Shown here one piece after another: positions 27,203 to 52,500 of a stretch of DNA of 64,000 bases. This DNA is from Naegleria gruberi. Taxonomy: Eukaryota. The DNA lies in the NCBI GenBank assembly GCA_000004985.1, contig GG738854.1; one strand, written 5' to 3'. The translations under genes and the position numbers were made by a program. The stretch's first letter is position 1. Every line of letters begins with the position of its first letter. The notes beneath the pieces were generated by a model. That model was not told the DNA's origin and made no database searches. It saw only the letters and a program-made list of their open reading frames with translations.

Positions 27203-30200
27203 ATGCAAGAATCCATTATGAGTGCTGAGACTCTAGAAGAGGGTGATGCTAACGCTTTAAATTTAATAAATAGTTTAGTAACTGCGGAAGAGGAACAACA
27301 ACTTCAACATCATCATGCTCACCACCAACATCATGATTTTACAGAACTGACAGATAATCATTTTCTTGGTGACCATCATTCTGCTACCACTCCAACCCTT
27401 TCCGATTCTAAAATTCATCATGACAATGAGATACATTCCGTTACGGATGAAGAACATTTATTCAATTTTAATTTAGGTAGTGGAACAACTCCAACTAATC
27501 AACCACACCGAGATGACGATTCATCCTCTCATCATCTTGTTGGTAATTTTGATTCAACAACCTCTACTCCAATAGTACAAACAAACACAGGTCAGCCTTT
27601 GGATGATAGGGATCGATTATTAAAACGAATTAATGAATTAGAAGAACAAGTAAGAGCTTTGATAGAAGACAACAAACAAAAGACTGATGCATTTAATGTT
27701 ATCACACAACATAATATTGATTTATCATATCAATTACAAATTATTCAATATTACCATCCCGAATTAATATCAGCAATTCCTCCACCAAGTGCTGCTAATC
27801 CAACACCAAATTCTCCTCTCATGTTATCACCAAATAATCACCACCAGCAACATATTGCAACTACATCACCATTCTTTTCAAATCCAACAGGTATTACGCC
27901 ATCTTCTCACTTTTCAACTTCTCCAGGCGTATTATCAAATATTACATCACCAATGACCTCTCCTTCTGCTAATACTCCCAACATGTCAAATAATATTAAT
28001 GGAATTTCACCAAATCTTCAACCTTCATTGGTTCCAAATAATCCAGCAGGTTATTACCCACTTCATCATCCACATTTAATGCAACCAACTCCTCTCATTC
28101 CACAACAACCAAAGAATGGAACAAAAAAGAAGAAGAAAAAAGGAGAATCACCTGCAGTTAATTCTTCATCATTTCAATCACCAATTTCCTCTGTAACATC
28201 TCCAACTTCCTCTGTACCATTAAATAAGAAACAGACTAAAAAGAAGAGAAAACATGAAAGTGATGGAGAGGAAACTTCCGAGTCTGAAGATGAAACACCT
28301 GAAAATGCCACTTCTACCCCTTCAAACCTTCCACCTGTTAATACTCATTTACCACCACCACCTTCATCAAATCTTCCACCAAAACCTAAAGTAACACTTC
28401 CACCTCAACCATCTAAGCATTTGCCAAAGCTTCCACCAAGATCTCTACTTCCTGGTATGGATCCTTTTGCTATGCACGCTACAACACCTTTTCCATTTCC
28501 ACCTCCTTCTGGTTTACCTCATCCACCATTGGGAATGAGTGAACATCCTTTAATGATGGATCCATCACTTCTTCAACATCATATGGCTCATCATTCTTCA
28601 GAAGCTCCTTCTCCAGGTGCCTTCTCACCAATGGGAACAACAGCTGAAACTCCAGGTGCATCAAATCAACGAAGAAGAAGTAAAAAGGGTGAAGGAATTG
28701 AGAATAGTGATAGTAGTGAGACATTAAATCCATCCAATGCTGAATTAGAAATTAGAAAATTATTTGGAAAAGTTAACAATGGAGGAAAACGAGGTATTTT
28801 AGCTGTTCATGCAGGTGATGGTTTGGAAGCTGTTAAAGAAATTATCAGACAAACTCTGGATCAGGTAGAATTACTAAAGAATCGATCTGTTACAGAGTAT
28901 AATTCTAGGAAAGAAAACAATGCTATGAATTGCATTAACAAGGCTTTGGATTTATTACACCAAGCAACACGTGGAATAGTTGGAGGTTTATTACAATTAT
29001 TAGAGTCGAGTATTTCTCAACTTTTAGATGGTACAAGAGATAATTGGGGTTTAGAAATAGCTAAAATGATGGAAAAGAGTTGGTTAGATTTATTCTCAGT
29101 TATATTTGTAGAATCTGAAATCACCAGCTATACACAATTAGGTACTCTTGTTGATCCTATACAAATGCAAAGTTGTCTTGAAGAACTTCAATCATTTGGA
29201 AAATCTCTTTCTTACTTTAAATTTGACCATCTGACTAGAGTGTTCAATATCATGTTTGGTTACATGAAGAAGAATAACTCTGTAGAGTGGTATCTGGGCT
29301 TTTGTTTACAAATCAGATATTACAAAGAGTATTGTGCCAAAATGATTGAACTTTATCACTATGAAGATTGTTTTAACAATATTGTAAATAATATTCTCAC
29401 AGGAAATGCTCACTCTGAAAGAACAGGAGATTATAAGGATGAAGATAAGACATATCTTGTCGAGTATGCTGTTTTATGTCTCACTAAAATTTATGATCAA
29501 TCTGTAGAAATTGTCAGACAAGAATATATTGATAACCACATTGAAGATAGTATGCCAATCAACTTGTCAAATACTCAATATTCAGAAATGTTGGAAAAGA
29601 TAATGGGTAGCTGTGTAAATATTCAAAATATTGTTTTATACCCAAGAGAATTAGTCCCTCTACTCAAATTTTTGTTAAAGGTTTTCCCAAGTGATGAAGC
29701 TTTTATAGATGGAGGAGGTTTGGGAGAAACAAGACAAGATATTAGACATTTAACATTTATTGCAGATCTTTTATTTATTATGAGTAGATTTATTGTTGAA
29801 TTAGATGAATATAACGAAACCATTGATTCTGTCAAAGCAGTAGGAAGAAAGATTGTACTAGAATGTACAGACAACCTCCTTCAAAAGCTGATTAAGATTA
29901 GATTTGAAGGTGCTGCAACACATTTGAAGGAAATTTTGGAAACAAATGACCTTTTCAAGATGAGTATTGCTCAAATTTGTGAGAAGGCTGTTTGGATACC
30001 AATTCATCAAGAGGAGAAGGATTATAACTGGAAGTCTCTCCATGACTATAATGAAACTCTGCAGATCAAACAAGATGAAGCTGCTGTTACTGTTAGAGGA
30101 AAACTTTTGGAACATTTGAAAATACTATTACCTGGTGCATCTCAATATTTATCAGTAATGATTGATTGTATTAATTATGCACTTGGTTGTAAAATTGAAA

Positions 30201-30790
30201 ACAGAAGTAATACCAGTTATGAACAATTTTTCAATGTCATGAAGAGAATTGGCGTTCACTATTTACAAAGTCATAGAGAAGCCCAATGGGAAGAACTACT
30301 TGCAAAGATTTACTTTATTCACTCTAGGAAAGTTAAACTGAAGAAAATGTTAAAACAATGGAATACAGAATTTAAGGGCAAGATGGAAACCAATGTCAAC
30401 TGGTATGATCAATTATTAGGAGAGAATTATGTAGAGACAGAACCTCTTGTTTTGCTACCAAAAGTTGAAGAAAAACCTCCAGTTCCAATATCTGCTCTGC
30501 AGCCACAACCTGTCCTTAATCCAGCCACCACAATCACTTCAAATACACCAGTCACAAGCACTACCAACGCAGTCACACCTACAACAATTACTCCAGTGAC
30601 TTCTACCACTTCCTCAACACCCTCCTCTGGTGGTCTAACCACACAAACCCTTAAAAGAAGAAAAACTAAACTGGTCAAAGTAGAGGAAGTTTCCTCAAAT
30701 GGAAACAATTCATCTTATCCAAACTCTACAAACGCCTCAACTACCACCACAACTACAGCAGCAGAGGATGATATGGAAGAGGACGAATAA
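27203..30790 (+). CDS. large nuclear-type hypothetical protein (His/Pro/Ser-rich N-terminus, basic NLS-like K-runs, conserved ~650-aa C-terminal domain)
   Basis: 1195-aa ATG ORF. The low-complexity N-terminal half includes 'KKKKKKGESP' and 'KKQTKKKRKHESDGEETSESEDE'. The structured C-terminal half is family-unassigned. Confidence 0.55.
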   Translation: MQESIMSAETLEEGDANALNLINSLVTAEEEQQLQHHHAHHQHHDFTELTDNHFLGDHHSATTPTLSDSKIHHDNEIHSVTDEEHLFNFNLGSGTTPTNQPHRDDDSSSHHLVGNFDSTTSTPIVQTNTGQPLDDRDRLLKRINELEEQVRALIEDNKQKTDAFNVITQHNIDLSYQLQIIQYYHPELISAIPPPSAANPTPNSPLMLSPNNHHQQHIATTSPFFSNPTGITPSSHFSTSPGVLSNITSPMTSPSANTPNMSNNINGISPNLQPSLVPNNPAGYYPLHHPHLMQPTPLIPQQPKNGTKKKKKKGESPAVNSSSFQSPISSVTSPTSSVPLNKKQTKKKRKHESDGEETSESEDETPENATSTPSNLPPVNTHLPPPPSSNLPPKPKVTLPPQPSKHLPKLPPRSLLPGMDPFAMHATTPFPFPPPSGLPHPPLGMSEHPLMMDPSLLQHHMAHHSSEAPSPGAFSPMGTTAETPGASNQRRRSKKGEGIENSDSSETLNPSNAELEIRKLFGKVNNGGKRGILAVHAGDGLEAVKEIIRQTLDQVELLKNRSVTEYNSRKENNAMNCINKALDLLHQATRGIVGGLLQLLESSISQLLDGTRDNWGLEIAKMMEKSWLDLFSVIFVESEITSYTQLGTLVDPIQMQSCLEELQSFGKSLSYFKFDHLTRVFNIMFGYMKKNNSVEWYLGFCLQIRYYKEYCAKMIELYHYEDCFNNIVNNILTGNAHSERTGDYKDEDKTYLVEYAVLCLTKIYDQSVEIVRQEYIDNHIEDSMPINLSNTQYSEMLEKIMGSCVNIQNIVLYPRELVPLLKFLLKVFPSDEAFIDGGGLGETRQDIRHLTFIADLLFIMSRFIVELDEYNETIDSVKAVGRKIVLECTDNLLQKLIKIRFEGAATHLKEILETNDLFKMSIAQICEKAVWIPIHQEEKDYNWKSLHDYNETLQIKQDEAAVTVRGKLLEHLKILLPGASQYLSVMIDCINYALGCKIENRSNTSYEQFFNVMKRIGVHYLQSHREAQWEELLAKIYFIHSRKVKLKKMLKQWNTEFKGKMETNVNWYDQLLGENYVETEPLVLLPKVEEKPPVPISALQPQPVLNPATTITSNTPVTSTTNAVTPTTITPVTSTTSSTPSSGGLTTQTLKRRKTKLVKVEEVSSNGNNSSYPNSTNASTTTTTTAAEDDMEEDE

Positions 30791-31071
30791 ATGCTTTGCC
30801 ACTTATTGAGAGATATAACATGGAGAGAAAATCTTGTGAACAGTTTGATTCTGTCTCTGTAAGGAAGTCGATTAAGGGATATTAAGGGATCACTTCCTTT
30901 AAAAAAAATTGTACATGACCAATGATAACAAGAAGCACCACAACTACCGACAGGCACGGTCATCACTTCTCCTCACCACCGCACTCATTGTTGTTGTCAT
31001 CTGGATCATGTCCTCCTCGACCCTTACTACAAAAACAACAGTACTGTTCAAATGTAATAATAAGATTAATA

Positions 31072-34000
31072 ATGGCGGTTGGGTTCCTAGTGTTGTTAAC
31101 AACAATATCTTGCCAAATTCAGTCCGATGATTTTATATCTACTGCTCCATTAGAAATACCAAACCTTCTGCCTTCCACTTCATCATTTGTAACATATGTG
31201 TATTTGATAGATGAGGAGTTATATAAGGAGTGTACCAATATTACCACATCAACAGGTTTGTAATTTAAAGATCAATTATCCTTAGTCTTTTTTCATAGTT
31301 AAAAGGTTTTCGTGTCCGAGTATTTACAAATCCATTATGCATTTGAATAAGGAAGTAGGTGGTGAAATTATGATGAGAGATATAAAGTTAGTTCTCAAAA
31401 TTGGACGAGTAACAAGTTGTGAGGTTGCTCCTCTCATGGTTCAGACTTTCATTACAATAATTATTGAAAATTTAGAAGAGGATTCATACGGAACAATATC
31501 ATGTTCTTCGAGTAGAAATCCATCATCTATTATTCCTGATGAAACTCTCCTCCAATTCGTCATTTTGAAAAACATGAGGATGGAATATGTGGAAATTGGA
31601 CTATCCTTTCCATCAGAGGTTAGAATACGTCATTGTTACTTTATTAATTCAAAAATAAGTATTAGGAAGGATGAAAGAATGATGTTTTATGATACTCTTA
31701 AAGTGGAAATAAGTGGAGTAACTTCTCTGCAGAGTTATTTCACATTTTTTAAAGTGGACAAACTTCATTTGAGTAATGTTGCTATTGTTAAAGGAAAAAC
31801 AGATACATTTTCTGTTACCAAAAATGGATGGGATTTCAAAGGAGTTAAGGATGTTCTTCTTGAGGATTGTGTAATTAAGGATGTATTGAGAGTTTTGGAG
31901 GGAACAAATACAAATATTACAACTTCATCATTTGAGGGAGACTCATCACTCTATATTTCTCAATCTGACAATCTATTTATTTCCCAAACATTATTCTCTG
32001 ATTCTATATTAGAATCCTTACCAATGTTAATTATTACTTTTGTGAAGGTGGTTGACATTTCTGATTGTACTGTTGAAAGATTAGGTTCTCAATGGCTTTA
32101 TGTCTCTTCAACAGTTGATATAATTTTGATGCGTTTAATTGTTAATGATTGCAAATTGAAGGGCAATTTAGTCTATCTCACTTCTACAAACAAGGTTTTT
32201 ATTAAGAACTCTCTTTTTAAAGACATTACTGGAACTGTGGTTAATATGGCAAATATTGTAACTTTGGAGTTGAAAAATTCGACTTTCCATTCGTGCCATA
32301 GTAGAATACACGAATCGATTGTGATACTGAACACTAATGAAGTATTTTCAGCTAGTGCAACTAATGAAAAATCGATTATTTGGGGATCAAGATTTATCAA
32401 GTGTTCAGGGTCCAGGGGAGGAGCAATCTTCTTGAGTTCTTTTTATAAGGTTGATATTAACAGGTGTGAATTCATAGCAAATAGTGCACCAAGTGGGAGT
32501 GCAATATACTCGGATAGTAGAAGGGGAATGATTTATACAGCTACAGGGCTGGAACCTACCATCTCCATCTTTCATTCACTATTTCAAGAGAATGGAGACC
32601 CAACTTTTGGGTCAACATCCTCTGGAGGAGCCATTCACGTTAAGGGAAGCATATATATTGAACAATGTACATTTATTGCCAATTATGCTGTTAAGGGTGG
32701 TGTAATTTATATTGACAAATCAGATTCCACCTTTTACTTTAGTCAATACGAACAAAAGTTAGCAGTATTGGTTGCTAGAAGTGAATTTCAGAATAACACA
32801 GCAAATTTTGGAGAAATTTCCTTCACTGAACTACCTGATCCATCACTAATCTATTTCAAAACCAATATTGTTGTATTTAATCCAACTTCTCTGGGATCAC
32901 CTTGTACCAAGCTAATTATTGATAATACGCAATCTGAACGAGGAAATGTTTACAATGGAACATTAATGGTTTACATGGGAGAGAATGTGAATATAAACAT
33001 GATTGCTTCTAATTTATACGGATACATATTCCCAAAACCATACACAATTATTGGAATTAGGACTCCTGGATCTTCCAAGATATTTGTCAAAACATTAGAT
33101 GATGAAGATCATGTTGAAAATCAAACATTTAACAAATCCTTCTCACTCTATTCACATTATGAAATTTCCTCTCATGAAGATTTGGAGATTTTCATTTCTT
33201 ATGATAAGGTTCATATATCACTCAACTTGATTGTAACACCTTGTCCATTATTCTACAAGTGGGAATCTCCTGTTTGTGTTAATATTTTCTACTTGATTCC
33301 AACTGTTGCTTCAGTCACTTTGTTGACGATAGTTATTGGACTTGTAGCAATTGTTGCTTGTTGTATTGCAAGAAACAAGACAAAGAGATGGAATAGTCGA
33401 AAGAAGGCAGAAAGAATAATGGAACAAGCTCTACTTGATAAAAGAGTTATCTTTGAGGAAGATGAAGAGTCTAGCTCATGTAATTTGAATCGACCTTTCA
33501 TAATCTCAGCAGAAGATATTGTAATTGTAAAGAAAATTGGTGAGGGAGGTGCTGCTAATGTTTTCCTTGCTAAATGGAAAGGTCAAGAAGTTGCCATTAA
33601 AACTCTTAAAGAATGTTTCAGAGGAGACAATGAGGTTTTGGAAACAGAAGCTGCCTTGATTAGTAGTTTCCTTCATCCGAATGTGATTAGATTTTGGGGA
33701 TTTTGTGCCTCATCCTCTCAGAAATACATGGTCATGGAGTATATGAAAGGAGGAAGTTTGGAGAATCTGATTCAGAGTTGTAAAATTGGAAAGGAAAAGT
33801 TGTCCCTCTATGAAAAGCTTCAAATTCTGATTGGGGTAGCTAAAGGAATGGCTTATCTGCATGGCTTGAAACCATGTTGTGTTCACCGTGACTTGAAACC
33901 TGGAAATATTCTGTTGGATGAAAATCGAATCAGTAAGGTTGGAGATTTTGGTTTATCCAGACTCATTTCAAATACCTATCAGACCAGTTTTACAACGAAT

Positions 34001-34615
34001 GTGGGTACTTTATTCTATATGGCACCAGAAAACTTTTCTGATAATACCTTCTCTGAAGATTCATTGGGAATGTCTGGTTTTTCACACACAACCTACCAAA
34101 CTACAAATATGACCAACAATACTCATCATTCCATCCAATCATACTATTCAGAGACAGAGTCAGCAGTAGATCAATCGGCAACTATACAAGAATCAGAGAC
34201 CTCTGAGAAGAAACTATTGAATGCTTCAAAGGTTGATGTTTACAGTTATGCAGTGATTATGTGGTCACTCTTCTTTGAGGAAAGTCCTTATGGAAACTAC
34301 AATACTAAGAAGATGAACTTTTTTGGAGATAGTAATGATAACTTTACTAATTGTTACACTGTTTTACCATTGATTCTTCAAGGTAAGAGACCTACAGTAC
34401 CATTTAATTCTGTTGAGAAGATGAAGAGATGGCTTGATGTGTTTGTACTCCCAAAAGAATTAGGAAAGGACAGAGAACATTTATCTAAAATTGTTTTTAG
34501 ATATCTCAACATGATGAAGCTGTGTTGGCATCCACAGCCAGAAGAGCGTCCACCATTTGATCAAATAGTTCCAGAACTGGAAGATTTAGCTGAGCAACTC
34601 CAATACAATAATTGA
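31072..34615 (+). CDS. receptor-like protein kinase: signal peptide, beta-helix ectodomain with Pmp-like 'GGAI' repeats, TM, TKL-type kinase domain; 2 exons
   Basis: Exon 1 is 31072..31255 (ATG in 'aataATGgcg', signal peptide 'MAVGFLVLLTTISCQIQS'). The intron is 31256..31298 (GTTTGT..TTTTTCATAG, 43 nt, phase 1). Exon 2 is 31299..34615, in frame with the 1092-aa track ORF. Ectodomain repeats: 'GGAIFLSSF', 'SGSAIYSDS', 'GGAIHVKGSIYIEQCTFIANYAVKGGVIYID'. TM 'IPTVASVTLLTIVIGLVAIVACCIA'. Kinase motifs: 'IGEGGAANVFLAKWKGQEVAIKTLK', 'HRDLKPGNILL', 'DFGLSR', 'YMAPE'. Confidence 0.65.
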
Positions 34616-34764
34616 CAACTCAATTGAAATTCCTCCACATTCTCTCCAAGGATCGTTTTTCAATAGCATACGGAACTTCAAGAACTCCTCTCAAAATCTT
34701 TAAAATATCAAGACCCATACTGTAATGAACATAAGTTAACAATAAACTATTGATATTGCACAAC

Positions 34765-35765
34765 TTACAATATTCCAATAATTCCTGCAATTTGGCCTAA
34801 AAGACCTTCCATCGTTGAAGTAACCATTTCAGTAATTACATTAACATTCAATGTTGAATAAGCAACTGAAATTACCACTTCATCTCCATCGAATTGAGTT
34901 AATTCCACGATGGATAACTGAGGATGCCATCTCACTGAATTAATTCCTCCTTCGGTATTTGGTTTTAGTCTATTTGTGATAACCTTTGTCAAGATGAAAT
35001 AATTGTCCACTCCAGAAATTGCATAATTGGTCTCTGCAAATACATTAGGTACTGTTCCAGTTTCGTGAAAAGAAACTTGCAAACCAAATCTTGAATCTCT
35101 ATTTTCAGGAACAAAAGGGACATGAAAATAGAATGAAATAGTTCCTGCATATCCAATATCAGTAGCTTAAATTGTGAATGAGATTTTTCCTTGCTCGTTA
35201 ATCACTTACCATTCAAAAGTGATTGGCTCACATTATTGAATACATAACAATTGAACAATTGACCATTCTGAAAAAGCACAACTCTATCATAATGAGGATC
35301 CAAATTTTCCACAATTCCCAATGTAGAATTCACTTTCGTTGCAAACTTTAACGTTAAATTACAATAATCACAATCCAACATTGCATTCCAGTTACAAACA
35401 GTAATAGCTGGAAACGGTAAAGGAACTGACTCGATAAATGTTGTGGCTGTTGTTGGATTACTAATACTCTGCACAAATTGTTCGGAAGAGTCAACAATAT
35501 ACCATATACACATTGCTGTTGCTATGAACCACCCAATGCATGTTATTGCTCTGCTCACCTTAGTGTACATCCATGTTTTCTTCTTCTTTTTCCTCCGTTC
35601 TTGAAGTGTTTGCTGTATTTGCTGAATTTGCCTCACTTGTTCCATTCTGATTTCGGAATCCTGCACTCCATCATCACACACAGGACCTACTTGAACCTGA
35701 ATCCCAGACAACGTCTCGAACGTTGTAGAATTGGAACATTTCTCCTCCTCATTGTTTGTTGCCAT
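34765..35765 (-). CDS. two-TM membrane protein with an ENaC/degenerin-like post-TM1 'FPAITVC' motif (tentative family), 2 exons; paralog 1 of a tandem pair
   Basis: Exon 1 is 35765..35210 (ATG at 35765). The intron is 35209..35166 (GTAAGT..TTTAAG, 44 nt, phase 1). Exon 2 is 35165..34765; about 318 aa. Cytoplasmic N-tail with a K-run, TM1 'AITCIGWFIATAMCIWYIV', then 'SVPLPFPAITVCNWNAMLDCDYCN' (compare ENaC 'FPAVTIC'), a Cys-containing ectodomain and a C-terminal hydrophobic segment 'EGLLGQIAGIIGIL'. Confidence 0.55.
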
Positions 35766-36030: not shown

Positions 36031-36847
36031 TCAACAAGCAAAAATTACAAAGCCAACTCTTAATAATAAACTTACAAAATTCCAACCATGCCAGCAATTT
36101 GCCCTAACAACCTTCAACGAAGTTGTGTAAATTTCTGAAATTTGTCTCAAATTCATAGAAGCATAAGCTACCGAAATAACAATGATATCATCATGTGTAT
36201 CGGTGAGTTCTATAAAGGACAATACTGATTCCCAACGAACCGAATGTAAGCCATCTTCTTTCGTTGGTTTCAATCTTGTGGTTAACACTTTTGTAACAGA
36301 AAAGAAATTGTCTACATTTGGAATGGCAAAGTTTGTCTCTGAAAAAACATTTGGCACAGTTCCAATCTCATGAAATGAAATTTGCAGACCGAATCTTCCA
36401 TCCAAACTCTGGGGCACGAGAGGGAGCTTAAAGTAGAATGTTAAAGTTCCAGAATATCCAACATCCTTTGCTGTTTCGAATGAGAATTATCCGCATAAAT
36501 TCAAATACGAACCTTCAACAGGATTCATCGACCTATTATTAAATACTAAACATTGAAATGGCTGTTCGTGCTGAACTACCACCTTACTATCATATTCCAT
36601 TGTGTAATTCTCCACAAAACCAGTTTCACTATTCACTCTCGTCAAGTGTTCCAAAGAAAGGGAGCAAAACTCACAATCATGCAAAGCATTCCAATTACAA
36701 ACAGTCATTGCAGGATAATATAAAGGAACCGAATCAACATAGGATGTTGCTGTGGTCGGATTTTCAAGTGCCGAGATGAAATTCGTTATTATATGAATAG
36801 GCAATATAAAATCCACAAACTCCCATCGCCACAATCCATCCAGCCAT
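36031..36847 (-). pseudogene. paralog 2 of the ENaC-like two-TM gene, disrupted by a 1-nt frameshift just after TM1
   Basis: Same two-exon structure (intron 36512..36471, GTTCGT..AAACAG, 42 nt). TM1 'MAGWIVAMGVCGFYIAYSYNNEF' reads in one frame and hits TGA; 'ISALENPTTATSYVDSVPLYYPAMTVCNWNALHDCEFC' continues in the adjacent frame, with an extra C at 'gaattt-c-atctcg' near 36777-36782. Further upstream (36949..37224) is a third frame with a His-rich tract, so the N-terminus is also unclear. Confidence 0.45.
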
Positions 36848-37340
36848 TGTGATTAATTCTCCAAAGTGAGGCAATCTGATACTCCAGTTTTTCCTTAATT
36901 GTGTCCATTTACTTTTATTAAGGGTGCCCTGCAAATTGGTATTATTTCCTATTGTCTGATGATTAAGTTGATGATGATGATTATTATTGAATAATTTTCG
37001 TGATGATGAAGATGACGACCATGATGATGATGATTGATGATGTGATGAGGTGCCTTCTTTGGCGACCTTCCAACCTCTATATAAACACTATCTGAACTGA
37101 GAATCGACTTGTCTCTTCTTGGAAACGAAGTGTGCATTTTTTTGAGTGTTGTTAAGGGAAGTTTGAATACGGATTTGGAGTTCCATAGCCATAACTGAAA
37201 CATTGTTGTAGAAAGAAAATTCATTTCTTGGGTTATGATATATTGGTGAAGATGAATTGGAGGGTTGCTGCTTATTCCAGATGTCTACAACCAGCACACT
37301 ATGGAAAGAATATAAAAGAATAATTTTTTAAATATGCGAA

Positions 37341-38059: not shown

Positions 38060-39079
38060 ATGATCAATCGCGATAATGATGAAGATAAAGTTTCTTTCAC
38101 CTTCTTTAATTTCACTCAATCCGAAGTCTGCAATCCTCTTTATGCTAAACTTCGTGAAAAACTTTCGTCCAACAAGAGCAAAACCTTCTCCATGCAATTT
38201 ACTCCCCACAAAACGATTGGCTATCAAAGGCCTATAATTACCGAGGACGGAGATGTGGAAGAAGTTTCTAATGAAGAGAACAAGTTGAAACTTCATTATC
38301 CTTCCGATATTAAAATTGCTCGCCATCATGGTTGTCTTGTAATTGCTGATGATCATAATGATAGAATAGTATTTCTCAATTTGGATAATTATCAATTGAG
38401 GACTGAATTTATTTTGGAAGAGAATGTCACTGATTTTTGGATTGAGTCTGATAGTGCTGGAAATGAATATATTTATTTTGGAGATAATGGAATTACTTTT
38501 AAATTTAATATTGCCAAATTGGTTGAACATGCACAAGTCAAGTTGAAAGATATAGAGCCTATGTGGAAGATTTCTGAAAAACTGTCTGGATCTATAATGG
38601 TAATACATGATACAAGTAGAAAGGAAAAGGTAGTATTGAGATGGAACAATGATGCACAAGGATTAAATGCTCATAGAGATTGTGATGGTTCTCTATTGGC
38701 CAAATATCCAGTCTTGTCGTTGTGTGATTCTCCTGGACTGTTTGCCATTTCAAATTCAGAATTCATTGCTCTCAATCACGAATCTAATATGGTCTTTAAA
38801 ATTACATTTACCGATGGCAAATGTGAAAACTCAGACATGTTTCAAGTACAAAATCATTGGAAACATCCACTTTCGGTTGCAAAAGAATTGAATCAACCTA
38901 GAATTTACATCTCAGATTATGGAAATAAGAGGATTGTTGTGTGGGACTTGTTGCAGGGGTGTGAAATTAAAATTCACCACGAGGAACATCTCCATCCATT
39001 TGGAATTTTCTATGACGATCAATCTGGACTACTCTATGTTGTCGATCAACAAGCTTCTATCATTCGAGTGTATCAGTAA
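38060..39079 (+). CDS. NHL-repeat-like beta-propeller protein (hypothetical)
   Basis: 339-aa ATG ORF after an A8 run. Repeated 'hydrophobic-x-V/I-x-D-x-x-N-x-R-I-V-V-W/F' blades: 'HHGCLVIADDHNDRIVFLNLD', 'PRIYISDYGNKRIVVWDL', 'GLLYVVDQQASIIRVYQ'. Confidence 0.5.
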   Translation: MINRDNDEDKVSFTFFNFTQSEVCNPLYAKLREKLSSNKSKTFSMQFTPHKTIGYQRPIITEDGDVEEVSNEENKLKLHYPSDIKIARHHGCLVIADDHNDRIVFLNLDNYQLRTEFILEENVTDFWIESDSAGNEYIYFGDNGITFKFNIAKLVEHAQVKLKDIEPMWKISEKLSGSIMVIHDTSRKEKVVLRWNNDAQGLNAHRDCDGSLLAKYPVLSLCDSPGLFAISNSEFIALNHESNMVFKITFTDGKCENSDMFQVQNHWKHPLSVAKELNQPRIYISDYGNKRIVVWDLLQGCEIKIHHEEHLHPFGIFYDDQSGLLYVVDQQASIIRVYQ

Positions 39080-43712: not shown

Positions 43713-44028
43713 TTCTTCTTTTCAAAAAACTATTTAGCAATCTTTTTCATATTAAATCGCTATTGCCTTTTTATGAGATATCAACAAGCAGTCTATTTAT
43801 TACTTGATTTTGTAAAGTTTTTTCTTTTCCTATCATCTTTCTGCTCAAAAAAAATCCACTTTAACTCTTGTTAATTCCATTGGTGAGTAGTGTCGATAGA
43901 TCTGTAAGCGTTTTGGCTCATTAACCTTTTCGTGAGTATCCCCGCCTTAGTTACAATCGCTTTTCCATCGAACCAGTAATCTCCAGTCTGCACTTGAAGA
44001 ACCAAAGTCACGTTGATCTCAAAAAAAA

Positions 44029-46281
44029 ATGTTTAGTAACTGCCATCATCATGATGATGCTGAACGTGTAGTAATTATATTGGACGATCATGACAAATTT
44101 ATGGAACAATTATTGAATAGCAAATATAAACAAGAACGAAATTTATCATGCTACAAACAAATATTAAAATATTTAACTAATACGAGAGGTTTAATATTAA
44201 AGTATTATGAATTACCTGTTATATTACGAAGAGATCGGAGATTCATCACTGAAATTGCACAAACTTTTGAATTTTACCAACAATTACCTGAAGAATTTAA
44301 ATCCGATAAACAAGTAATGCTAAATTGTTTTAAAAAGAAAGTATTTAATGGAAGTGATATTAAGAGTGGATATATTCCCTCTAATTTAATGAATGATAGG
44401 AAATTTATATTGGAATTAATTGAAGGAAATCCAACATGTCTCTATTTAGTACCGAAAGAAAGAGAATTCGTGTTGGCAGCAATGAAACACGATATTATAT
44501 ATTTGGGATTTCTCCCAGGAAGTGAAAAGAAGAATGAATCATACATGTGGGAATTGTTTTTGAAAAATTGGGAAAATTTAAGATTTGCAAGTGGTGAATT
44601 ACTAAATAATCCATCATTTGCTATAAAAGTAAGAAAGCATGATACCAATACTTTCAACTATTATTGTGGACGGCCACATTTGGCGGTTCATGCAAGGGAT
44701 AAATTTCGAAATAATAGAGAATATGTGCTTTTTGCTATTTTACATGGAAAAGCTGATTTTACAATGATAAAAAAGGTATTTCAAGCGGATTTGGAAATTA
44801 AAATGGCAAATAATATTAAAACTGATGCCTCCTTATGGAAATTAAAGGAAGAATGGGCAAATGACAAGGAAATGATTTTGAAATATGTCAAACATAATTC
44901 AAATATATTGAAATTTATTAATTTGGAATTACTACAGGATTATGAATTTAATATTAAATTAATTTACAAAAATATTGAAAGTATTCAATTTATTAATGAA
45001 TGCAATACTAATTTTAAACAATTATTTACACAATCAGATAAAACTGAATTAATTTCTAGATATTTAAGCAACAAAAAATTTAACATTAATTCCAAAATTA
45101 TAAATCCAACTAATATTAGAGCATTTGGTTCCAAAATTAATTATATACATTTTATAGAGGAATATTTAAATGAAAACGATTTAATTTATATAACAAGTAA
45201 TATTGATGGACAAGCATGTTACGGTTTGTTAAACGTAATTTCCAATAAGAAAATTTTCAATGAATGCTTACAATTATGGAAAATAACAGTTAAAAAGCAT
45301 TATTCATGTTATGAATTATTTAATATAAAATATACCAAACAAGATATTATTGAGATAATTTCATCCATGCATGAATCTCCTTTTCCATTCCTGGCACACA
45401 TTGATAGAAATGTATTTAGCTCTGAGAGTGAAGTTCTTCTCATTGCAATTCAAACCCATTTCAAGTGCTTTGAATTGGCAAGTAAAGAACTGAAATCTGA
45501 CTTGAATTTTATTAGAAAGTCAGTCAATTTAAATAGAAATATTATTAAAGTAATAGATTTGCAAATTGTACAAGATAATTTGGATTTATTGATTATTTAT
45601 ATAAATTATAAATTAAAAATCAATACCATGTATGGATATCAAAATAGCGCTCATGCATTAAATCCATTAATTAACATATTAGCAAAACATTTACAAAATG
45701 AGGATACAGTTTTACAATTAGTAGAAATACCCCAATTTGTAAATTTATTTTATGGCCATATAGATATTAATTTAAGATCAAGTGAGGAATTCTGTTTAAA
45801 AATATTAAAAACAGATTTGAATAATGCCACTAAAATTCCAAATTTAATTAAATATAGAAATTTCATAATTGAATTTCTAAAAGAGGGAAAATCCATTACA
45901 TTCATTCCTAAAATATTCGAACAGGATGAGGAATTTTTACATTTATTTTTTAAAAACTGGAATCGTACGGAATACCTTCCAATATTACCAGCGGATGAAA
46001 TTTTTATTGGTATTCTAATTAAGGAATTGAAAATTAACCCATCCATATATAGAAATTTTAATAATAGTGATCCGTTGAAACATAATTGGGATATATTATT
46101 GAATGTTGCCAGAGATGTAAATAGCTGTTTAGTTTTTCCCACCACAATATGGCAAGATGAGAATTTTAAATTGGAACTTGTGAAGAGAGGAATTTTTCCA
46201 CCTTCCTTTTTGAAACATTTTAATAGCATTTTGAACGATATGGATTTGATTGTAGAAAATGGTTTTTACTTGATTCAATAA
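44029..46281 (+). CDS. DUF4116 repeat-containing protein
   Basis: 750-aa ATG ORF after an A9 run. At least 8 tandem ~30-aa repeats of the DUF4116 type ('D/N-+-E/Q-hydrophobic-hydrophobic-L-x-hydrophobic-hydrophobic-K-x-N'): 'DKQVMLNCFKKKVFNGSDI', 'DRKFILELIEGNPTCLYLV', 'EREFVLAAMKHDIIYLGF', 'NPSFAIKVRKHDTNTFNYY', 'NREYVLFAILHGKADFTMI', 'DKEMILKYVKHNSNILKFI', 'DYEFNIKLIYKNIESIQFI'. Confidence 0.55.
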   Translation: MFSNCHHHDDAERVVIILDDHDKFMEQLLNSKYKQERNLSCYKQILKYLTNTRGLILKYYELPVILRRDRRFITEIAQTFEFYQQLPEEFKSDKQVMLNCFKKKVFNGSDIKSGYIPSNLMNDRKFILELIEGNPTCLYLVPKEREFVLAAMKHDIIYLGFLPGSEKKNESYMWELFLKNWENLRFASGELLNNPSFAIKVRKHDTNTFNYYCGRPHLAVHARDKFRNNREYVLFAILHGKADFTMIKKVFQADLEIKMANNIKTDASLWKLKEEWANDKEMILKYVKHNSNILKFINLELLQDYEFNIKLIYKNIESIQFINECNTNFKQLFTQSDKTELISRYLSNKKFNINSKIINPTNIRAFGSKINYIHFIEEYLNENDLIYITSNIDGQACYGLLNVISNKKIFNECLQLWKITVKKHYSCYELFNIKYTKQDIIEIISSMHESPFPFLAHIDRNVFSSESEVLLIAIQTHFKCFELASKELKSDLNFIRKSVNLNRNIIKVIDLQIVQDNLDLLIIYINYKLKINTMYGYQNSAHALNPLINILAKHLQNEDTVLQLVEIPQFVNLFYGHIDINLRSSEEFCLKILKTDLNNATKIPNLIKYRNFIIEFLKEGKSITFIPKIFEQDEEFLHLFFKNWNRTEYLPILPADEIFIGILIKELKINPSIYRNFNNSDPLKHNWDILLNVARDVNSCLVFPTTIWQDENFKLELVKRGIFPPSFLKHFNSILNDMDLIVENGFYLIQ

Positions 46282-49503: not shown

Positions 49504-52500
49504 ATGTATCGAATGGGTTTATTTGAATGCCTTCAGTTGTTGATTGTTTGTTGTTTGACATTGGCAATGATAAGTTGTTCTAATGCCCAGACCAGATCAG
49601 TTGATTACAAAATAACAACACTTGCTGGAGGATTGTATGGAGAAGGAGTGAGAGCAACAAATGTTGGTATTAATGGACCGTTTGGTGTTTATTCATCATC
49701 TCTTTCTGGTGGGAACGTTTATTACACAGATGTTTCATATGGGCAAGTGAGATTTGTTGATTCGAATGGAATTTCACATCTTGTTGCTGGCTCACCAACT
49801 TATCATACAGGAACAGCCACAGATAGCTTGACTTTTGCAAATGATACCTTGAACATGCCACACAGTATTTCGTTCAATTCGAATGGAGAGATGTTTATTG
49901 CAGAGTACAACGCAACAAGGATTAGAAAGGTTTATTACAATTCAACTATTGGAGATTACAGTATGATTACTGTTGCTGGAGGTGGTTCTTCTCTTAGCAG
50001 TAACATTTCAGCTCTCAATGCCAAGTTCTCTCAACCTCGATGTGTTGTTGTTTCGCCAAATAATGAAGTTTACATTTGTGATACAGGTAATTACATGATC
50101 AGAAAGATTGTGAATGGTGTTGTGTATAATATTGTTGGAAATGGACAGCAGGGATCAAGTACTGATGGCACTCTTGCTGTCAATGCCAAAGTTTCTCTGG
50201 TATTGAGTGTTGCCTTTCATCCAGTGAGTGGTGAATTGTTCTTTTCTGATTATTCCAATAATGCAATCAAGTATGTCATGAATAATGGCAGCATTTTCAC
50301 ATATGCAACATCTAGTGGCCCTTATGGAATTGCTTTCGACTCGAGTGGCGATAATTTATATGTGGCAGAGTATGGATCTAACAAGATTGTTAAATTCACT
50401 AATGGTGTTAGATCTGTAATTGTCAATACTTTGGGCACAAAAAGTTTCAGTGGAGATGGTGGTAGTTCTTTGAGTGCAACCATCAATCTTCCTGCTGGTA
50501 TTGCACTGAATGGAAATAATCTCTACTTTGCTGATACTGCCAACAATCGTATTAGAGTGGTCAATTTACAAACCAGTATTGTGAATACTATTGCAGGTGA
50601 TGGAACTGCAAGATTCCTTGGAGCTTACTCTGGATCAAGATCAGATGTTTCATTATTTAGACCAGAGACAACATTTTACAATTCACAGACTGATGAGTTG
50701 CTGGTGGCCGACACCCTCAATCATCGCGTAGTTAGAATCAACTCACTGACAAATATCAATACATCCCCAATTGAATCTATTGCTGGTTATACTGGTATTG
50801 CTAGCAATGATGTTGCAGGCAAGTTGGGAAATCAAACCTATCTCAATTATCCATACTCTGTAGCTCAATCAGAAACTAGTGGTGATGTCTATTTTGGAAC
50901 CACTAATTTTGTTTACAAATGGGGAAAGAAAGATCAAAAGATTACACTCATTGCTGGATCGAGTAGTACATTGGCAGGCGATAATTATCTTGCTGTTGGT
51001 TCACAATTATATCAACCAGCTGGTATGGCCTTTGCTTCAAATGGAGATTTATATTTTTGTGATTCTAATAATCATGCTATTAGAAAGATTGATACTCAAG
51101 GTGTGATTACAACACTAACTGGAAATGGAACAGCAGGATTCCAAGATGGTGATGCTGCAAGTGCACTTTTCAATAGTCCAGCTAGTATTGCCTTATTACC
51201 AAATGGCGATTTTCTAGTTGCTGATTTTACCAATTCTAGAATTAGAAAATATGTTGCCAGTACCAAACAAGTTGTTACTATTGCTGGTAATTCAACTCTT
51301 GGTTTCTATGGAGATAATGGACTGGCTTCAAAGGCACTTCTAAACAAACCTACAGGTGTTTTCTATAATTCCACATCAGGTGATATTTTGATTGCTGATT
51401 ATTTCAATTTCAGAATTAGAAAAATTTCCAATAATACAGGAATTATTACAACCATTGCTGGATCTGGTTCAACCAGCTACAATGGAGATGGATTGGCAGC
51501 AACATCTACAAGTATGGCTCCATACGGATTGGCAGTAAATCCAATTAGTGGGGAGCTGTTCTTTACTGATAATGCCAACTTTCTTGTTAGAAGAATTGAT
51601 GCCAGCTCTAAGGTTCACACAGTAATTGGTGTTGCTAAAAGTACAATTTTCAATGTAACCAGTTTGGCCAATTCAACTGGTTTATCTTCAATTTCGTTCT
51701 TGACATTTTCACCAAGTGGTGATCTTTATGTTTCTTGCTTTGGACAACATGTCATCAAAAAGATGAGTTATGGTAGCGATATTGTTTATAATGTAGCTGG
51801 TACAGGAAATACAGATTTGAATGGAGATGGATTGGAAGCAACATTGACCAATCTTTATCAACCAATTGCTGTAGCTTACTCTCCTACTTCCAGTGAATTA
51901 TACTTTTCTGATTATTTACATGATAGAGTGAGAAAAATAACCTCTTCAGGATTGGTTGAAACAGTTGCAGGAGGTTTAGGTGATAAGGGATTGGCTGTTA
52001 ATGCAAAAATCAGAGGTGTTTCATCAATATTACTGGTAGACAATGATTTATATATCTCTGATGCATTCAATTATAGAATTCGTAAAATTTCCCTCTCAAC
52101 TGGTATTATTGATTCCATTGTTGGAGCATCATATGCATCTATTTACAATGGAGATAACTTGGCCAATCAAACCAATATTAACTATGTATGGGATCTGAGA
52201 ATTCAAAACGGTGAACTTGTATTTGCTGACATGAACAATAACTTAATTAGGAAAACAAGTTTATCTGGTAAAGGAAAGGTAACAACCATTGCTGGTATGG
52301 GTACAAACAATGCTTCGATTATTATCGATAATGTCAAGGCAACAAGTGCCTATTTGAAAAACCCTGGTTCTGTTGCATTCTTACCAACTGGTGATATGAT
52401 TATTGCAGAGACAGAAGGTCATATCATTAGAAAGGTTGATTTGAATGGCAATATTTCACTCATTGCTGGATCATTCTTCCAACCAGGTTTCAATGGTGAC

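What the first reader, a model, noticed from the sequence alone, without database searches (positions are those of the whole stretch)
31072..34615. Receptor kinase whose ectodomain is built from chlamydial Pmp-type beta-helix repeats; missed first exon with signal peptide
The extracellular part carries repeated 'GGAI' motifs with FxxN-like segments in a parallel beta-helix-like arrangement (as in polymorphic membrane proteins of Chlamydiae). It is fused through one TM to a TKL-type kinase with intact HRDLKPGN/DFG/APE motifs. The six-frame ORF starts inside the protein. A 184-nt upstream exon (31072-31255) supplies a classical signal peptide through a 43-nt GT..AG intron with consistent phase, so automated annotation would likely truncate this gene. 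The bacterial-type repeat suggests possible ancient horizontal acquisition of the ectodomain.
Basis: partly seen in the sequence, partly recalled or inferred. Interest (0 to 1): 0.5.

Follow-up and report, generated by a model that had tools for sequence, protein, structure and literature searches.

The report
Naegleria beta-helix receptor kinase gene

Summary
The window is Naegleria gruberi NEG-M DNA. The sequence features are all present at 31072-34615. They are a 1092-codon ORF, an upstream 184-nt exon with a signal-peptide-like start, and a 43-nt GT..AG intron that is the only frame-keeping join. The spliced product is 1166 aa.

No RNA data were available, but five lines of evidence support exon 1:
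- Family alignments run across the junction, and Cys54 in exon 1 is invariant.
- The syntenic N. fowleri ortholog has an "MAV..." signal peptide.
- A 99%-identical strain has lost the ORF's first ATG.
- That strain diverges about 4% in the spacer but about 1% from 31072 onward.
- A paralog has 42- and 49-nt introns.

The horizontal-transfer idea and the annotation-truncation claim for this gene could not be tested. Interest is modest.

The parts
31072..31255 (+). Exon 1 (aa 1-61 plus the first base of codon 62); includes the start codon in an A(-3)/G(+4) context
   Evidence: Frame-consistent join. phmmer alignment to paralog P0131 starts at query aa 38. Cys54 is invariant in 4 family members. 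There is 1 difference in 184 nt against strain contig L002, compared with 12 events in the 281-nt spacer upstream. AlphaFold places strand 40-46 in the fold at pLDDT ~88.
31072..31113 (+). Predicted signal peptide MAVGFLVLLTTISC, cleavage before Gln15 (inferred)
   Evidence: Read from the sequence. The N. fowleri ortholog has MAVLTVICSLMMAVEA|Q and paralog P0135 has MQAALFAVFLALVFSCTLIHG|Q. AlphaFold pLDDT is below 50 for aa 1-37. No dedicated signal-peptide predictor was available.
31256..31298 (+). Spliceosomal intron, 43 nt, GT..AG, phase 1, with a yUnAy-like CCTTAG 13 nt upstream of the 3' AG
   Evidence: It is the only GT-AG pair that keeps the frame open. If retained, translation stops after GL* (P0133). 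The paralog locus L003 has homology-defined introns of 42 nt (GTAAGT...TATCCTCATTCTGCATAG) and 49 nt, both phase 1. No RNA evidence.
31299..34615 (+). Exon 2 (aa 62-1166 plus the stop codon at 34613-34615)
   Evidence: Continuous ORF. tblastn of the model finds one colinear match, with 34% identity to the N. fowleri ortholog over aa 265-1162.
31183..31519 (+). N-terminal cap region (aa ~38-135; spans the intron) with four family-invariant cysteines (C54, C67, C102, C130) and one helix (aa 70-82)
   Evidence: Alignment A1; AlphaFold secondary structure.
31532..32884 (+). Right-handed parallel beta-helix (aa ~140-590)
32372..32824 (+). Pmp-type repeat block (aa ~420-570): FxxN / GGA(I,V) rungs
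   Evidence: Motif positions. Invariant family columns are F490, N493, G504, G505, F520, N523, A525, G528, G529, N561, A563 and G566. Chlam_PMP scores 21.4 bits against 20.6. All weak prokaryotic matches align to this block.
32906..33238 (+). Membrane-proximal beta-sandwich (aa ~598-708), followed by a conserved CP...C stalk (aa 710-721)
   Evidence: AlphaFold strands 598-708. Foldseek matches to Ig-like domains are weak, at E about 1e-2. The family alignment has a conserved YPG...DLYGN and CPxxY...C.
33284..33370 (+). Single transmembrane helix (aa 724-752), followed by the basic stretch RNKTKRWNSRKK
   Evidence: Kyte-Doolittle hydropathy peaks at 2.88; AlphaFold helix 724-763.
33521..34594 (+). 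Protein kinase domain (aa ~803-1160) with GEGGAA, VAIK, HRDLKPGN, DFG and APE
   Evidence: Pfam PK_Tyr_Ser-Thr 2e-48 and Pkinase 5e-45. The best solved relative is CTR1 3ppz at 2e-33.
34067..34243 (+). Ser/Thr-rich insert of about 55 aa between APE and subdomain IX (DVYSY)
   Evidence: The CTR1 alignment breaks between query residues 190 and 247. APE is at aa 970 and DVYSY at aa 1041. A comparable insert is present in N. fowleri P0134 and N. lovaniensis P0001.

Best explanation
The locus is a two-exon Naegleria gruberi gene for a type I single-pass receptor-like protein kinase of 1166 aa.

Anatomy:
- Exon 1 supplies a cleavable signal peptide and the first strand and first conserved cysteine of the ectodomain. 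A 43-nt intron is then removed.
- The mature ectodomain is an N-terminal cysteine-containing cap, a right-handed parallel beta-helix of about 450 residues, and a beta-sandwich stalk.
- The last rungs of the helix carry Pmp-type FxxN/GGA(I,V) motifs. These motifs stack inside the helix and are structural, not catalytic.
- One transmembrane helix links this to an intact cytoplasmic kinase. Its HRDLKPGN catalytic loop predicts Ser/Thr or dual specificity. It is closest to CTR1 and TKL kinases, and it has a Ser/Thr-rich insert after APE.

Mechanism (inferred, not shown): the extended beta-helix binds a surface ligand. A polysaccharide or another cell or prey surface is most plausible, by analogy with beta-helix lyases, tailspikes and Pmp/PfbA adhesins. 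Binding-induced clustering would activate the kinase by trans-phosphorylation.

The gene belongs to a small, fast-evolving Naegleria family with at least 4 loci in N. gruberi. It has a syntenic ortholog in N. fowleri and an internally deleted copy in N. lovaniensis.
For: - Organism: exact matches of 6 window ORFs to N. gruberi EFC475xx proteins.
- Gene model: frame and uniqueness of the join.
- Homology across the junction: P0131 aligns from aa 38, and C54, C67, C102 and C130 are invariant.
- Ortholog: the syntenic N. fowleri gene carries MAV... plus a hydrophobic stretch, then |Q, upstream of its annotated Met.
- Strain contig L002: the ATG at 31337 is ATT, the spacer has 12 events in 281 nt, and 31072-31495 has 4 in 424 nt.
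- Intron size: the paralog has introns of 42 and 49 nt.
- Family: FxxN/GG columns are invariant, and the family profile hits PF02415 proteins.
- Motif enrichment: 0 of 20000 shuffles reached the observed count.
- Kinase: Pfam 2e-48, CTR1 2e-33, and all catalytic motifs present.
- Topology: one TM helix followed by a basic stretch.
Against: - No transcript data were available, so the junction, the transcription start and expression are untested.
- An in-frame ATG at 30922 is open in both strains and cannot be excluded as the start. However, that 150-nt stretch shows 5 nonsynonymous and 2 synonymous changes and an indel, so it looks unconstrained.
- Upstream out-of-frame ATGs at 30915 and 31008 would hinder scanning if the 5' UTR is long.
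- The donor GTTTGT is less canonical than the GTAAGT and GTAGGT of the paralog's introns.
- Chlam_PMP falls below its cut-off when the whole protein is scored (18.3 bits against 20.6).
- The ligand, dimerisation and kinase specificity are inference only.
- The AlphaFold model rests on a 7-sequence alignment.
Confidence: 0.8

Rival explanations
1. The protein starts inside the long ORF, at Met75 or Met86/87. Exon 1 is a chance ORF, so there is no signal peptide and the large N-terminal part is cytosolic or the gene is non-functional.
For: A six-frame reading gives ATG 31337 as the first Met. No RNA evidence for splicing is available. The 63-aa exon-1 ORF was called as a separate gene on a metagenome contig.
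Against: ATG 31337 is ATT in the 99%-identical strain. Family homology extends upstream of Met75 and into exon 1, including invariant Cys54 and Cys67. Relatives have signal peptides at the equivalent place. A ~650-aa beta-helix with 7 N-x-S/T sequons and conserved cysteines followed by a TM helix needs a signal peptide to be translocated.
Confidence: 0.07
2. Translation starts further upstream, at the in-frame ATG 30922. This adds about 50 residues, so the hydrophobic stretch acts as a signal anchor or a long-n-region signal. Alternatively, a different first exon from the 30915 frame (MTNDNKKHHNYRQARSSLLLTTALIVVVIWIM) is used.
For: The 30922 frame stays open for 50 codons in both strains, and the indel between them is 3 nt. 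N. fowleri also has an open in-frame stretch upstream of its MAV. Paralog P0131 has a 16-aa polar n-region starting MIKATTT.
Against: The stretch 30922-31071 has 8 events in 150 nt, against about 0.3-1% in flanking coding sequence. The 5:2 ratio of nonsynonymous to synonymous changes looks neutral. The extension has no similarity to the N. fowleri upstream stretch. ATG 31072 has the best initiation context, from my reading. For the 30915 frame I found no frame-restoring GT-AG, and its changes are all nonsynonymous.
Confidence: 0.1
3. The ectodomain was acquired by horizontal transfer from a bacterium, either Chlamydiae or another Pmp-bearing lineage, and was then fused to a eukaryotic kinase.
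For: The nearest matches outside the family are archaeal or bacterial beta-helix repeat proteins, with E from 1e-12 to 1e-9. The family profile hits PF02415 proteins and Rhombotarget A.
Against: Those matches cover only about 110-190 residues of repeated motif at 30-37% identity, and no chlamydial protein stands out. FxxN/GGA beta-helices are known in Trichomonas, Methanobrevibacter and Phycisphaerae (PMC10715098), so vertical inheritance or convergence are equally open. The gene has host-like GC of 0.35, a spliceosomal intron, and orthologs and paralogs across Naegleria. The Pmp middle domain and autotransporter barrel are absent.
Confidence: 0.1

Closest known systems
Naegleria paralogs and orthologs: N. 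fowleri FDP41_007123 (P0134), N. gruberi EFC50872 (P0132) and P0011, metagenome P0131, P0135, P0002
   Same: They share the architecture: cysteine cap, beta-helix with FxxN/GG rungs, beta-sandwich with YPG...DLYGN, CP..C stalk, TM helix, and a kinase with an insert after APE. P0134 is syntenic, with the same upstream neighbour.
   Different: Ectodomain identity is only 22-28%. The paralog has introns in the kinase domain and none after the signal peptide. All are unnamed hypothetical proteins, and several models are truncated or chimeric.
Chlamydial polymorphic membrane proteins (Pmp; Pfam PF02415 repeat)
   Same: Both have repeated FxxN and GGA(I,L,V) tetrapeptides on successive rungs of a beta-helix that is exposed on the cell surface (PMC10715098, PMC11166332).
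   Different: Only about 5 rungs here carry the motifs. There is no Pmp middle domain and no C-terminal autotransporter beta-barrel. Anchorage is by a TM helix and the protein is coupled to a kinase. The organism is eukaryotic.
Pmp-like surface proteins of Trichomonas vaginalis and other non-chlamydial PF02415 proteins
   Same: They are eukaryotic or archaeal beta-helix surface proteins with the same tetrapeptide pair (PMC10715098).
   Different: None of those described is fused to a protein kinase. I found no paper describing such a fusion.
Protist and plant single-pass transmembrane kinases (Entamoeba TMKs, oomycete LRR-TMKs, plant RLKs; CTR1 and other TKL kinases for the catalytic domain)
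   Same: The layout is the same: signal peptide, sensory ectodomain, one TM helix, and a cytoplasmic Ser/Thr/Tyr-superfamily kinase. Lineage-specific ectodomains are the rule in protists (PMC10463195). CTR1 is the closest solved kinase.
   Different: The ectodomain is a pectin-lyase-fold beta-helix rather than an LRR, CXXC, TIG, LysM or lectin domain. Heterolobosea were not in that survey. CTR1 itself is not a receptor.
Right-handed parallel beta-helix carbohydrate-active enzymes and adhesins (K1 lyase 7w1c, GH110, AlgE4, phage tailspikes, PfbA, Vag8)
   Different: Sequence identity is 7-17%. No catalytic residues were identified, so whether this ectodomain binds or cleaves carbohydrate is unknown.

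Membership tests
Chlamydial Pmp autotransporter family | Multiple paired FxxN and GGA(I,L,V) tetrapeptides (Pfam PF02415 / TIGR01376) | tested here: inconclusive
   There are 3 canonical pairs plus 2 degenerate ones, and 0 of 20000 shuffles reached 3. PF02415 scores 18.3 bits on the full protein and 21.4 bits on the ectodomain, against a cut-off of 20.6. TIGR01376 scores 13.5 against 15. Four of 7 family members match, the best at 1.4e-8.
Chlamydial Pmp autotransporter family | Pmp middle domain (PF07548) | tested here: not met
   No such hit in the Pfam scans at E<=1 or E<=0.01.
Chlamydial Pmp autotransporter family | C-terminal autotransporter beta-barrel (PF03797) | tested here: not met
   No hit. 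The C-terminal part is a TM helix plus a kinase.
Pectin-lyase-like right-handed parallel beta-helix superfamily | Three-sheet right-handed beta-helix fold | tested here: met
Eukaryotic protein kinase superfamily (active) | Gly-rich loop, VAIK Lys, alphaC Glu, HRD...N, DFG, APE | tested here: met
   GEGGAA 809, VAIK 826, HRDLKPGN 924, DFG 944 and APE 970. A Glu is present in the ETEAAL segment downstream of VAIK, but its identity as the alphaC Glu was read from the sequence only, not confirmed by a structural alignment. PF07714 scores 2e-48 and PF00069 scores 5e-45.
TKL group of protein kinases | Groups with TKL kinases (Raf/CTR1, MLK, RIPK, IRAK/Pelle) in a kinase phylogeny | tested here: inconclusive
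   The best solved match is CTR1 at 2e-33, followed by a mix of TK (BMX, ITK, ABL) and TKL (TNNI3K, BRI1, BAK1, TAK1, RIPK1) kinases. The best non-Naegleria hits are plant Raf-like or STY kinases and amoebozoan SH2 kinases. No phylogeny was built.
Type I single-pass receptor kinase | Cleavable signal peptide, extracellular domain, one TM helix, cytoplasmic kinase | tested here: met
   Met by prediction only. The signal peptide rests on sequence reading and homologs. Localisation is not testable here.
Spliceosomal intron | GT..AG borders, restores the reading frame, removed from mRNA | not testable with these tools
   The borders and frame are met, and the size matches homology-defined introns of a paralog. 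Removal from mRNA needs RNA-seq.

The most novel reading that the evidence does not exclude
Heterolobosean amoebae independently assembled a receptor-kinase family. Its sensor is an adhesin or tailspike-like Pmp-type beta-helix, possibly of prokaryotic origin, that couples recognition of polysaccharides on bacterial prey or on the substratum directly to TKL-type phosphorylation. This would be a kind of pattern-recognition receptor kinase not described in any eukaryote.
Probability: 0.2. Interest if true: 0.55.

Novelty: new variant of a known kind. Interest (0 to 1): 0.3.

Why it matters
- Receptor kinases are thought to have arisen several times by joining lineage-specific sensory domains to conserved kinases. 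Discoba are hardly sampled, and a 2023 cross-kingdom survey did not include Naegleria (PMC10463195).
- A beta-helix/Pmp-type sensor would add a new ectodomain class to receptor kinases.
- It gives a testable candidate for how a bacterivorous amoeba, and its pathogenic relative N. fowleri, which has a syntenic ortholog, sense surfaces.
- On the practical side, gene models of this family are often N-terminally wrong. Surveys based on predicted proteomes will therefore under-count secreted and receptor forms.
- The gene itself is an ordinary member of an existing, unnamed family in public genomes.

Tried and rejected
- **Word-indexed ectodomain search.** It returned nothing at E<=1e-3. The profile search did not return sequences that were in its own query alignment. 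So the lack of a near-identical N. gruberi hit says nothing about whether the gene is annotated.
- **Exact look-ups.** None is in the collection. By accession order (EFC47506 is the upstream gene, EFC47508 is 38060-39079), EFC47507 is probably this gene in some other form. I could not retrieve it. Literature searches for its likely identifiers found nothing.
- **Encoding-contig look-ups for N. gruberi's own proteins.** Not on record.
- **AlphaFold-database fold library.** Not available.
- **N. lovaniensis syntenic copy.** I first took it as a comparator for the ectodomain. It lacks the equivalent of aa ~190-760, so it was useless for that.
- **P0239 context.** Looking at the best PF02415 profile hit to judge prokaryotic versus eukaryotic origin was uninformative.
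- **Alternative acceptors at 31285 and 31320.** Rejected because of in-frame stops.
Full report
**Source and setting.** Six of ten long ORFs in the window are exact matches to Naegleria gruberi NEG-M proteins on a 665,159-bp scaffold. The ORF just upstream (27203-30790) is EFC47506.1. GC is 0.33-0.36 throughout, including the target. The region is gene-dense with long uninterrupted ORFs. This fits published N. gruberi figures of 1.7 exons per gene and 33% GC (PMC8296547).

**Observation.** 31337-34615 (+) is a 1092-aa ORF.
- Joining 31072-31255 to 31299-34615 removes GTTTGTAATTTAAAGATCAATTATCCTTAGTCTTTTTTCATAG (43 nt, phase 1) and gives an open 1166-aa product.
- Reading, the other AG acceptors after this donor (31285, 31320) lead to in-frame stops. 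Intron retention terminates after 63 aa.
- The product starts MAVGFLVLLTTISC|QIQ. It has one strong hydrophobic segment, aa 724-752, followed by RNKTKRWNSRKK.
- It carries GEGGAA, VAIK, HRDLKPGN, DFG and APE.
- Three canonical FxxN-x(3-14)-G[GS][AV]I pairs lie at aa 453, 490 and 520, with degenerate copies at 426 and 558. Shuffles expect 0.02, and none of 20000 reached 3.
The Pmp-type motifs are confined to aa ~420-570.

**Is exon 1 real?** No transcript data could be consulted, so I used comparative evidence.
1. An exhaustive phmmer search of the ectodomain found four clear relatives. The alignment to P0131 (E=5e-35) begins at query residue 38, inside exon 1, and runs through the junction to the TM helix.
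2. In an alignment of the four N-termini, Cys54 (exon 1), Cys67, Cys102 and Cys130 are invariant.
3. The N. fowleri gene FDP41_007123 (P0134) is the syntenic ortholog, with the same upstream neighbour. Its ORF continues upstream of the annotated Met and encodes MAVLTVICSLMMAVEA|QLSE without an intron. Paralog P0135 starts MQAALFAVFLALVFSCTLIHG|Q.
4. A metagenome contig from a 99%-identical strain (L002) covers 29455-31495.
   - The two differ at 12 events in the 281-nt spacer 30791-31071, including 1-nt and 3-nt indels.
   - They differ at only 4 positions in 31072-31495 and at 4 positions in 1336 nt of the upstream gene.
   - The ORF's first ATG (31337) is ATT in that strain.
5. In the paralog locus L003, comparison with the intron-less kinase region of the target defines two introns, both phase 1. 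One is 42 nt (GTAAGT...TATCCTCATTCTGCATAG) and the other is 49 nt. The 42-nt intron shares a TATCCTYA element and a CATAG 3' end with the proposed intron.
6. AlphaFold places the exon-1 strand 40-46 in the fold at pLDDT ~88, while aa 1-37 are below 50.

Together these make the model likely. I put it at about 0.8 for the junction and somewhat lower for the exact start codon.

**The start codon.**
- An in-frame ATG at 30922 is open to 31072 in both strains.
- The 150 nt between them carry 5 nonsynonymous changes, 2 synonymous changes and an indel. That is a neutral-looking pattern at roughly ten times the coding divergence.
- ATG 31072 has A at -3 and G at +4.
- Out-of-frame ATGs at 30915 and 31008 would interfere if the 5' UTR were long.
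- The start therefore needs 5'-end mapping.

**Ectodomain.**
- *Pfam on the full protein.* The hits are sub-threshold: Beta_helix 24.1 bits against 25.9, and Chlam_PMP 18.3 bits against 20.6.
- *Pfam on the ectodomain alone.* Both pass narrowly, at 28.2 and 21.4 bits. Four of seven family members match Chlam_PMP, the best at 1.4e-8.
- *Family alignment.* The only invariant columns are F490, N493, G504, G505, F520, N523, A525, G528, G529, N561, A563 and G566. These are the FxxN/GG motifs.
- *Family profile.* It retrieves 20 proteins, 13 of them carrying PF02415. In the PDB by sequence it finds only Rhombotarget A, at 1.9e-4 (compare).
- *AlphaFold model.* Built with the 7-sequence alignment, it has pLDDT 77.6 and pTM 0.68. 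It shows short strands from ~140 to ~590, a beta-sandwich at 598-708 and a helix at 724-763.
- *Foldseek.* It gave only weak matches to the same classes and to Ig-like domains.

The fold claim is confirmed. Pmp-type repeats are a real but partial and marginally scoring feature. The protein fails two defining features of chlamydial Pmps: there is no middle domain and no autotransporter barrel. It shares the repeat, not the family.

**Kinase.**
- Pfam PK_Tyr_Ser-Thr scores 2e-48.
- The closest solved structure is Arabidopsis CTR1 at 2e-33, followed by a mixture of TK and TKL kinases.
- The closest non-Naegleria sequences are plant Raf-like or STY kinases and amoebozoan SH2 kinases.
- HRDLKPGN predicts Ser/Thr or dual specificity.
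- 'TKL-type' is reasonable, but I did not test it by phylogeny.
- A Ser/Thr-rich insert of ~55 aa separates APE (aa 970) from DVYSY (aa 1041). It is also present in the orthologs.

**Family and annotation.**
- Relatives with beta-helix, TM helix and kinase occur in N. gruberi (EFC50872 and P0011, the latter on the same scaffold), N. fowleri, N. lovaniensis and metagenomes.
- Their models are often wrong at the 5' end. P0134 starts 37 aa after the signal-peptide Met. P0011 starts inside the beta-helix. P0132 has an unrelated N-terminal 300 aa where the metagenome ORF P0131 has a signal peptide.
- For the target itself I could not retrieve the deposited model. None of 11 candidate products is in the 15-billion-sequence collection. 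Accession order suggests EFC47507 is this gene.
- The homology tool's failure to return self-like sequences means I cannot say whether it is truncated.

**Horizontal transfer.**
- Matches outside the family are archaeal or bacterial beta-helix repeat proteins. E runs from 1e-12 downwards in significance, and they cover only ~110-190 residues of the repeat block.
- FxxN/GGA beta-helices are documented in Trichomonas, Methanobrevibacter and Phycisphaerae (PMC10715098).
- The gene has host-like composition, an intron, and orthologs and paralogs.
- Nothing here favours transfer over ancient presence or convergence. The question is open.

**Mechanism.**
- Shown by prediction: a secreted N-terminal beta-helix, one membrane pass, and an intact kinase inside the cell.
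- Inferred: ligand binding along the beta-helix, probably to a polysaccharide or another cell surface by analogy with the structural neighbours and with Pmp/PfbA adhesins. Clustering would then lead to trans-phosphorylation, perhaps involving the Ser/Thr-rich insert.

**Novelty.**
- I found no paper describing a Pmp-type or beta-helix ectodomain on a protein kinase.
- A cross-kingdom survey of transmembrane kinases did not include Naegleria. It did stress that protist ectodomains are lineage-specific, so the existence of such a family is not very surprising.
- I rate it a new variant of a known kind, with modest interest.

Noticed in passing
L001 4812-6432 (N. lovaniensis PYSW02000032.1, syntenic copy): The N. 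lovaniensis ortholog (C9374_008101, P0001) matches N. fowleri P0134 at aa 45-190 and 761-1102. It lacks the roughly 570 residues between, which cover most of the beta-helix, the TM helix and the kinase N-lobe. There is no run of N at the junction; a 10-N gap lies just upstream at 4798-4807. It is either an internally deleted pseudogene or an assembly collapse. The annotated 429-aa model splices across the break.
   Followed up: partly
L005 3850-4010 (N. fowleri VFQX01000058.1): The annotated FDP41_007123 starts at MKSMIVGQDC. The ORF is open upstream and encodes a signal peptide, MAVLTVICSLMMAVEA|Q, so the deposited model is N-terminally truncated by at least 37 aa.
   Followed up: yes
window 30922-31071: This is a divergence hot-spot between the window and the 99%-identical strain contig L002. 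It has 8 events in 150 nt, against 2 in the preceding 131 nt and about 0.3-1% in the coding flanks. Both strains nevertheless keep an in-frame ORF open here, and the indel is 3 nt.
   Followed up: partly
window 34620-35765 (-) and 36031-37224 (-): Two tandem, multi-exon paralogous genes lie on the minus strand. One exon product, containing FPAITVCNWN, weakly matches Pfam ASC (amiloride-sensitive sodium channel, 21.7 bits against a cut-off of 23.6). They appear to be DEG/ENaC-like channel genes immediately downstream of the kinase gene.
   Followed up: partly
window 49504-53535 (+): A 1343-aa ORF has a signal-peptide-like start, many NHL repeats (E=3e-53), a teneurin-type NHL domain and EGF domains. 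Its exact ORF product is not in the protein collection, so the deposited model probably differs.
   Followed up: no
window 4720-10008 (+): EFC47500 is a 1762-aa protein with dozens of teneurin-like EGF repeats (E=2e-72). Its C-terminal part has weak MFS_1 and RGS hits, which suggests a multi-pass receptor with an RGS domain.
   Followed up: no
window 27203-30790 (+): The upstream neighbour EFC47506 (1195 aa) has a His/Gln/Thr-rich low-complexity N-terminal half and no Pfam hit. Its C-terminal ~560 aa are 67% identical to the N. lovaniensis neighbour, and it keeps synteny with the kinase gene in three Naegleria species.
   Followed up: partly
window 44001-46000: GC drops to 0.258 here, against about 0.33-0.36 elsewhere. 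The drop lies within or around the 750-aa ORF 44029-46281 (EFC47511).
   Followed up: no
L003 (metagenome contig ERZ929261 k127_578075) compared with N. gruberi EFC50872 (P0132): The deposited N. gruberi model EFC50872 is identical to the metagenome ORF P0131 from about aa 300 onward. Before that it carries an unrelated Gln/Asn-rich N-terminal ~300 aa with its own TM segment, where P0131 has a signal peptide and the N-terminal part of the ectodomain (cysteine cap and first beta-helix rungs). It is probably a chimeric gene model.
   Followed up: partly
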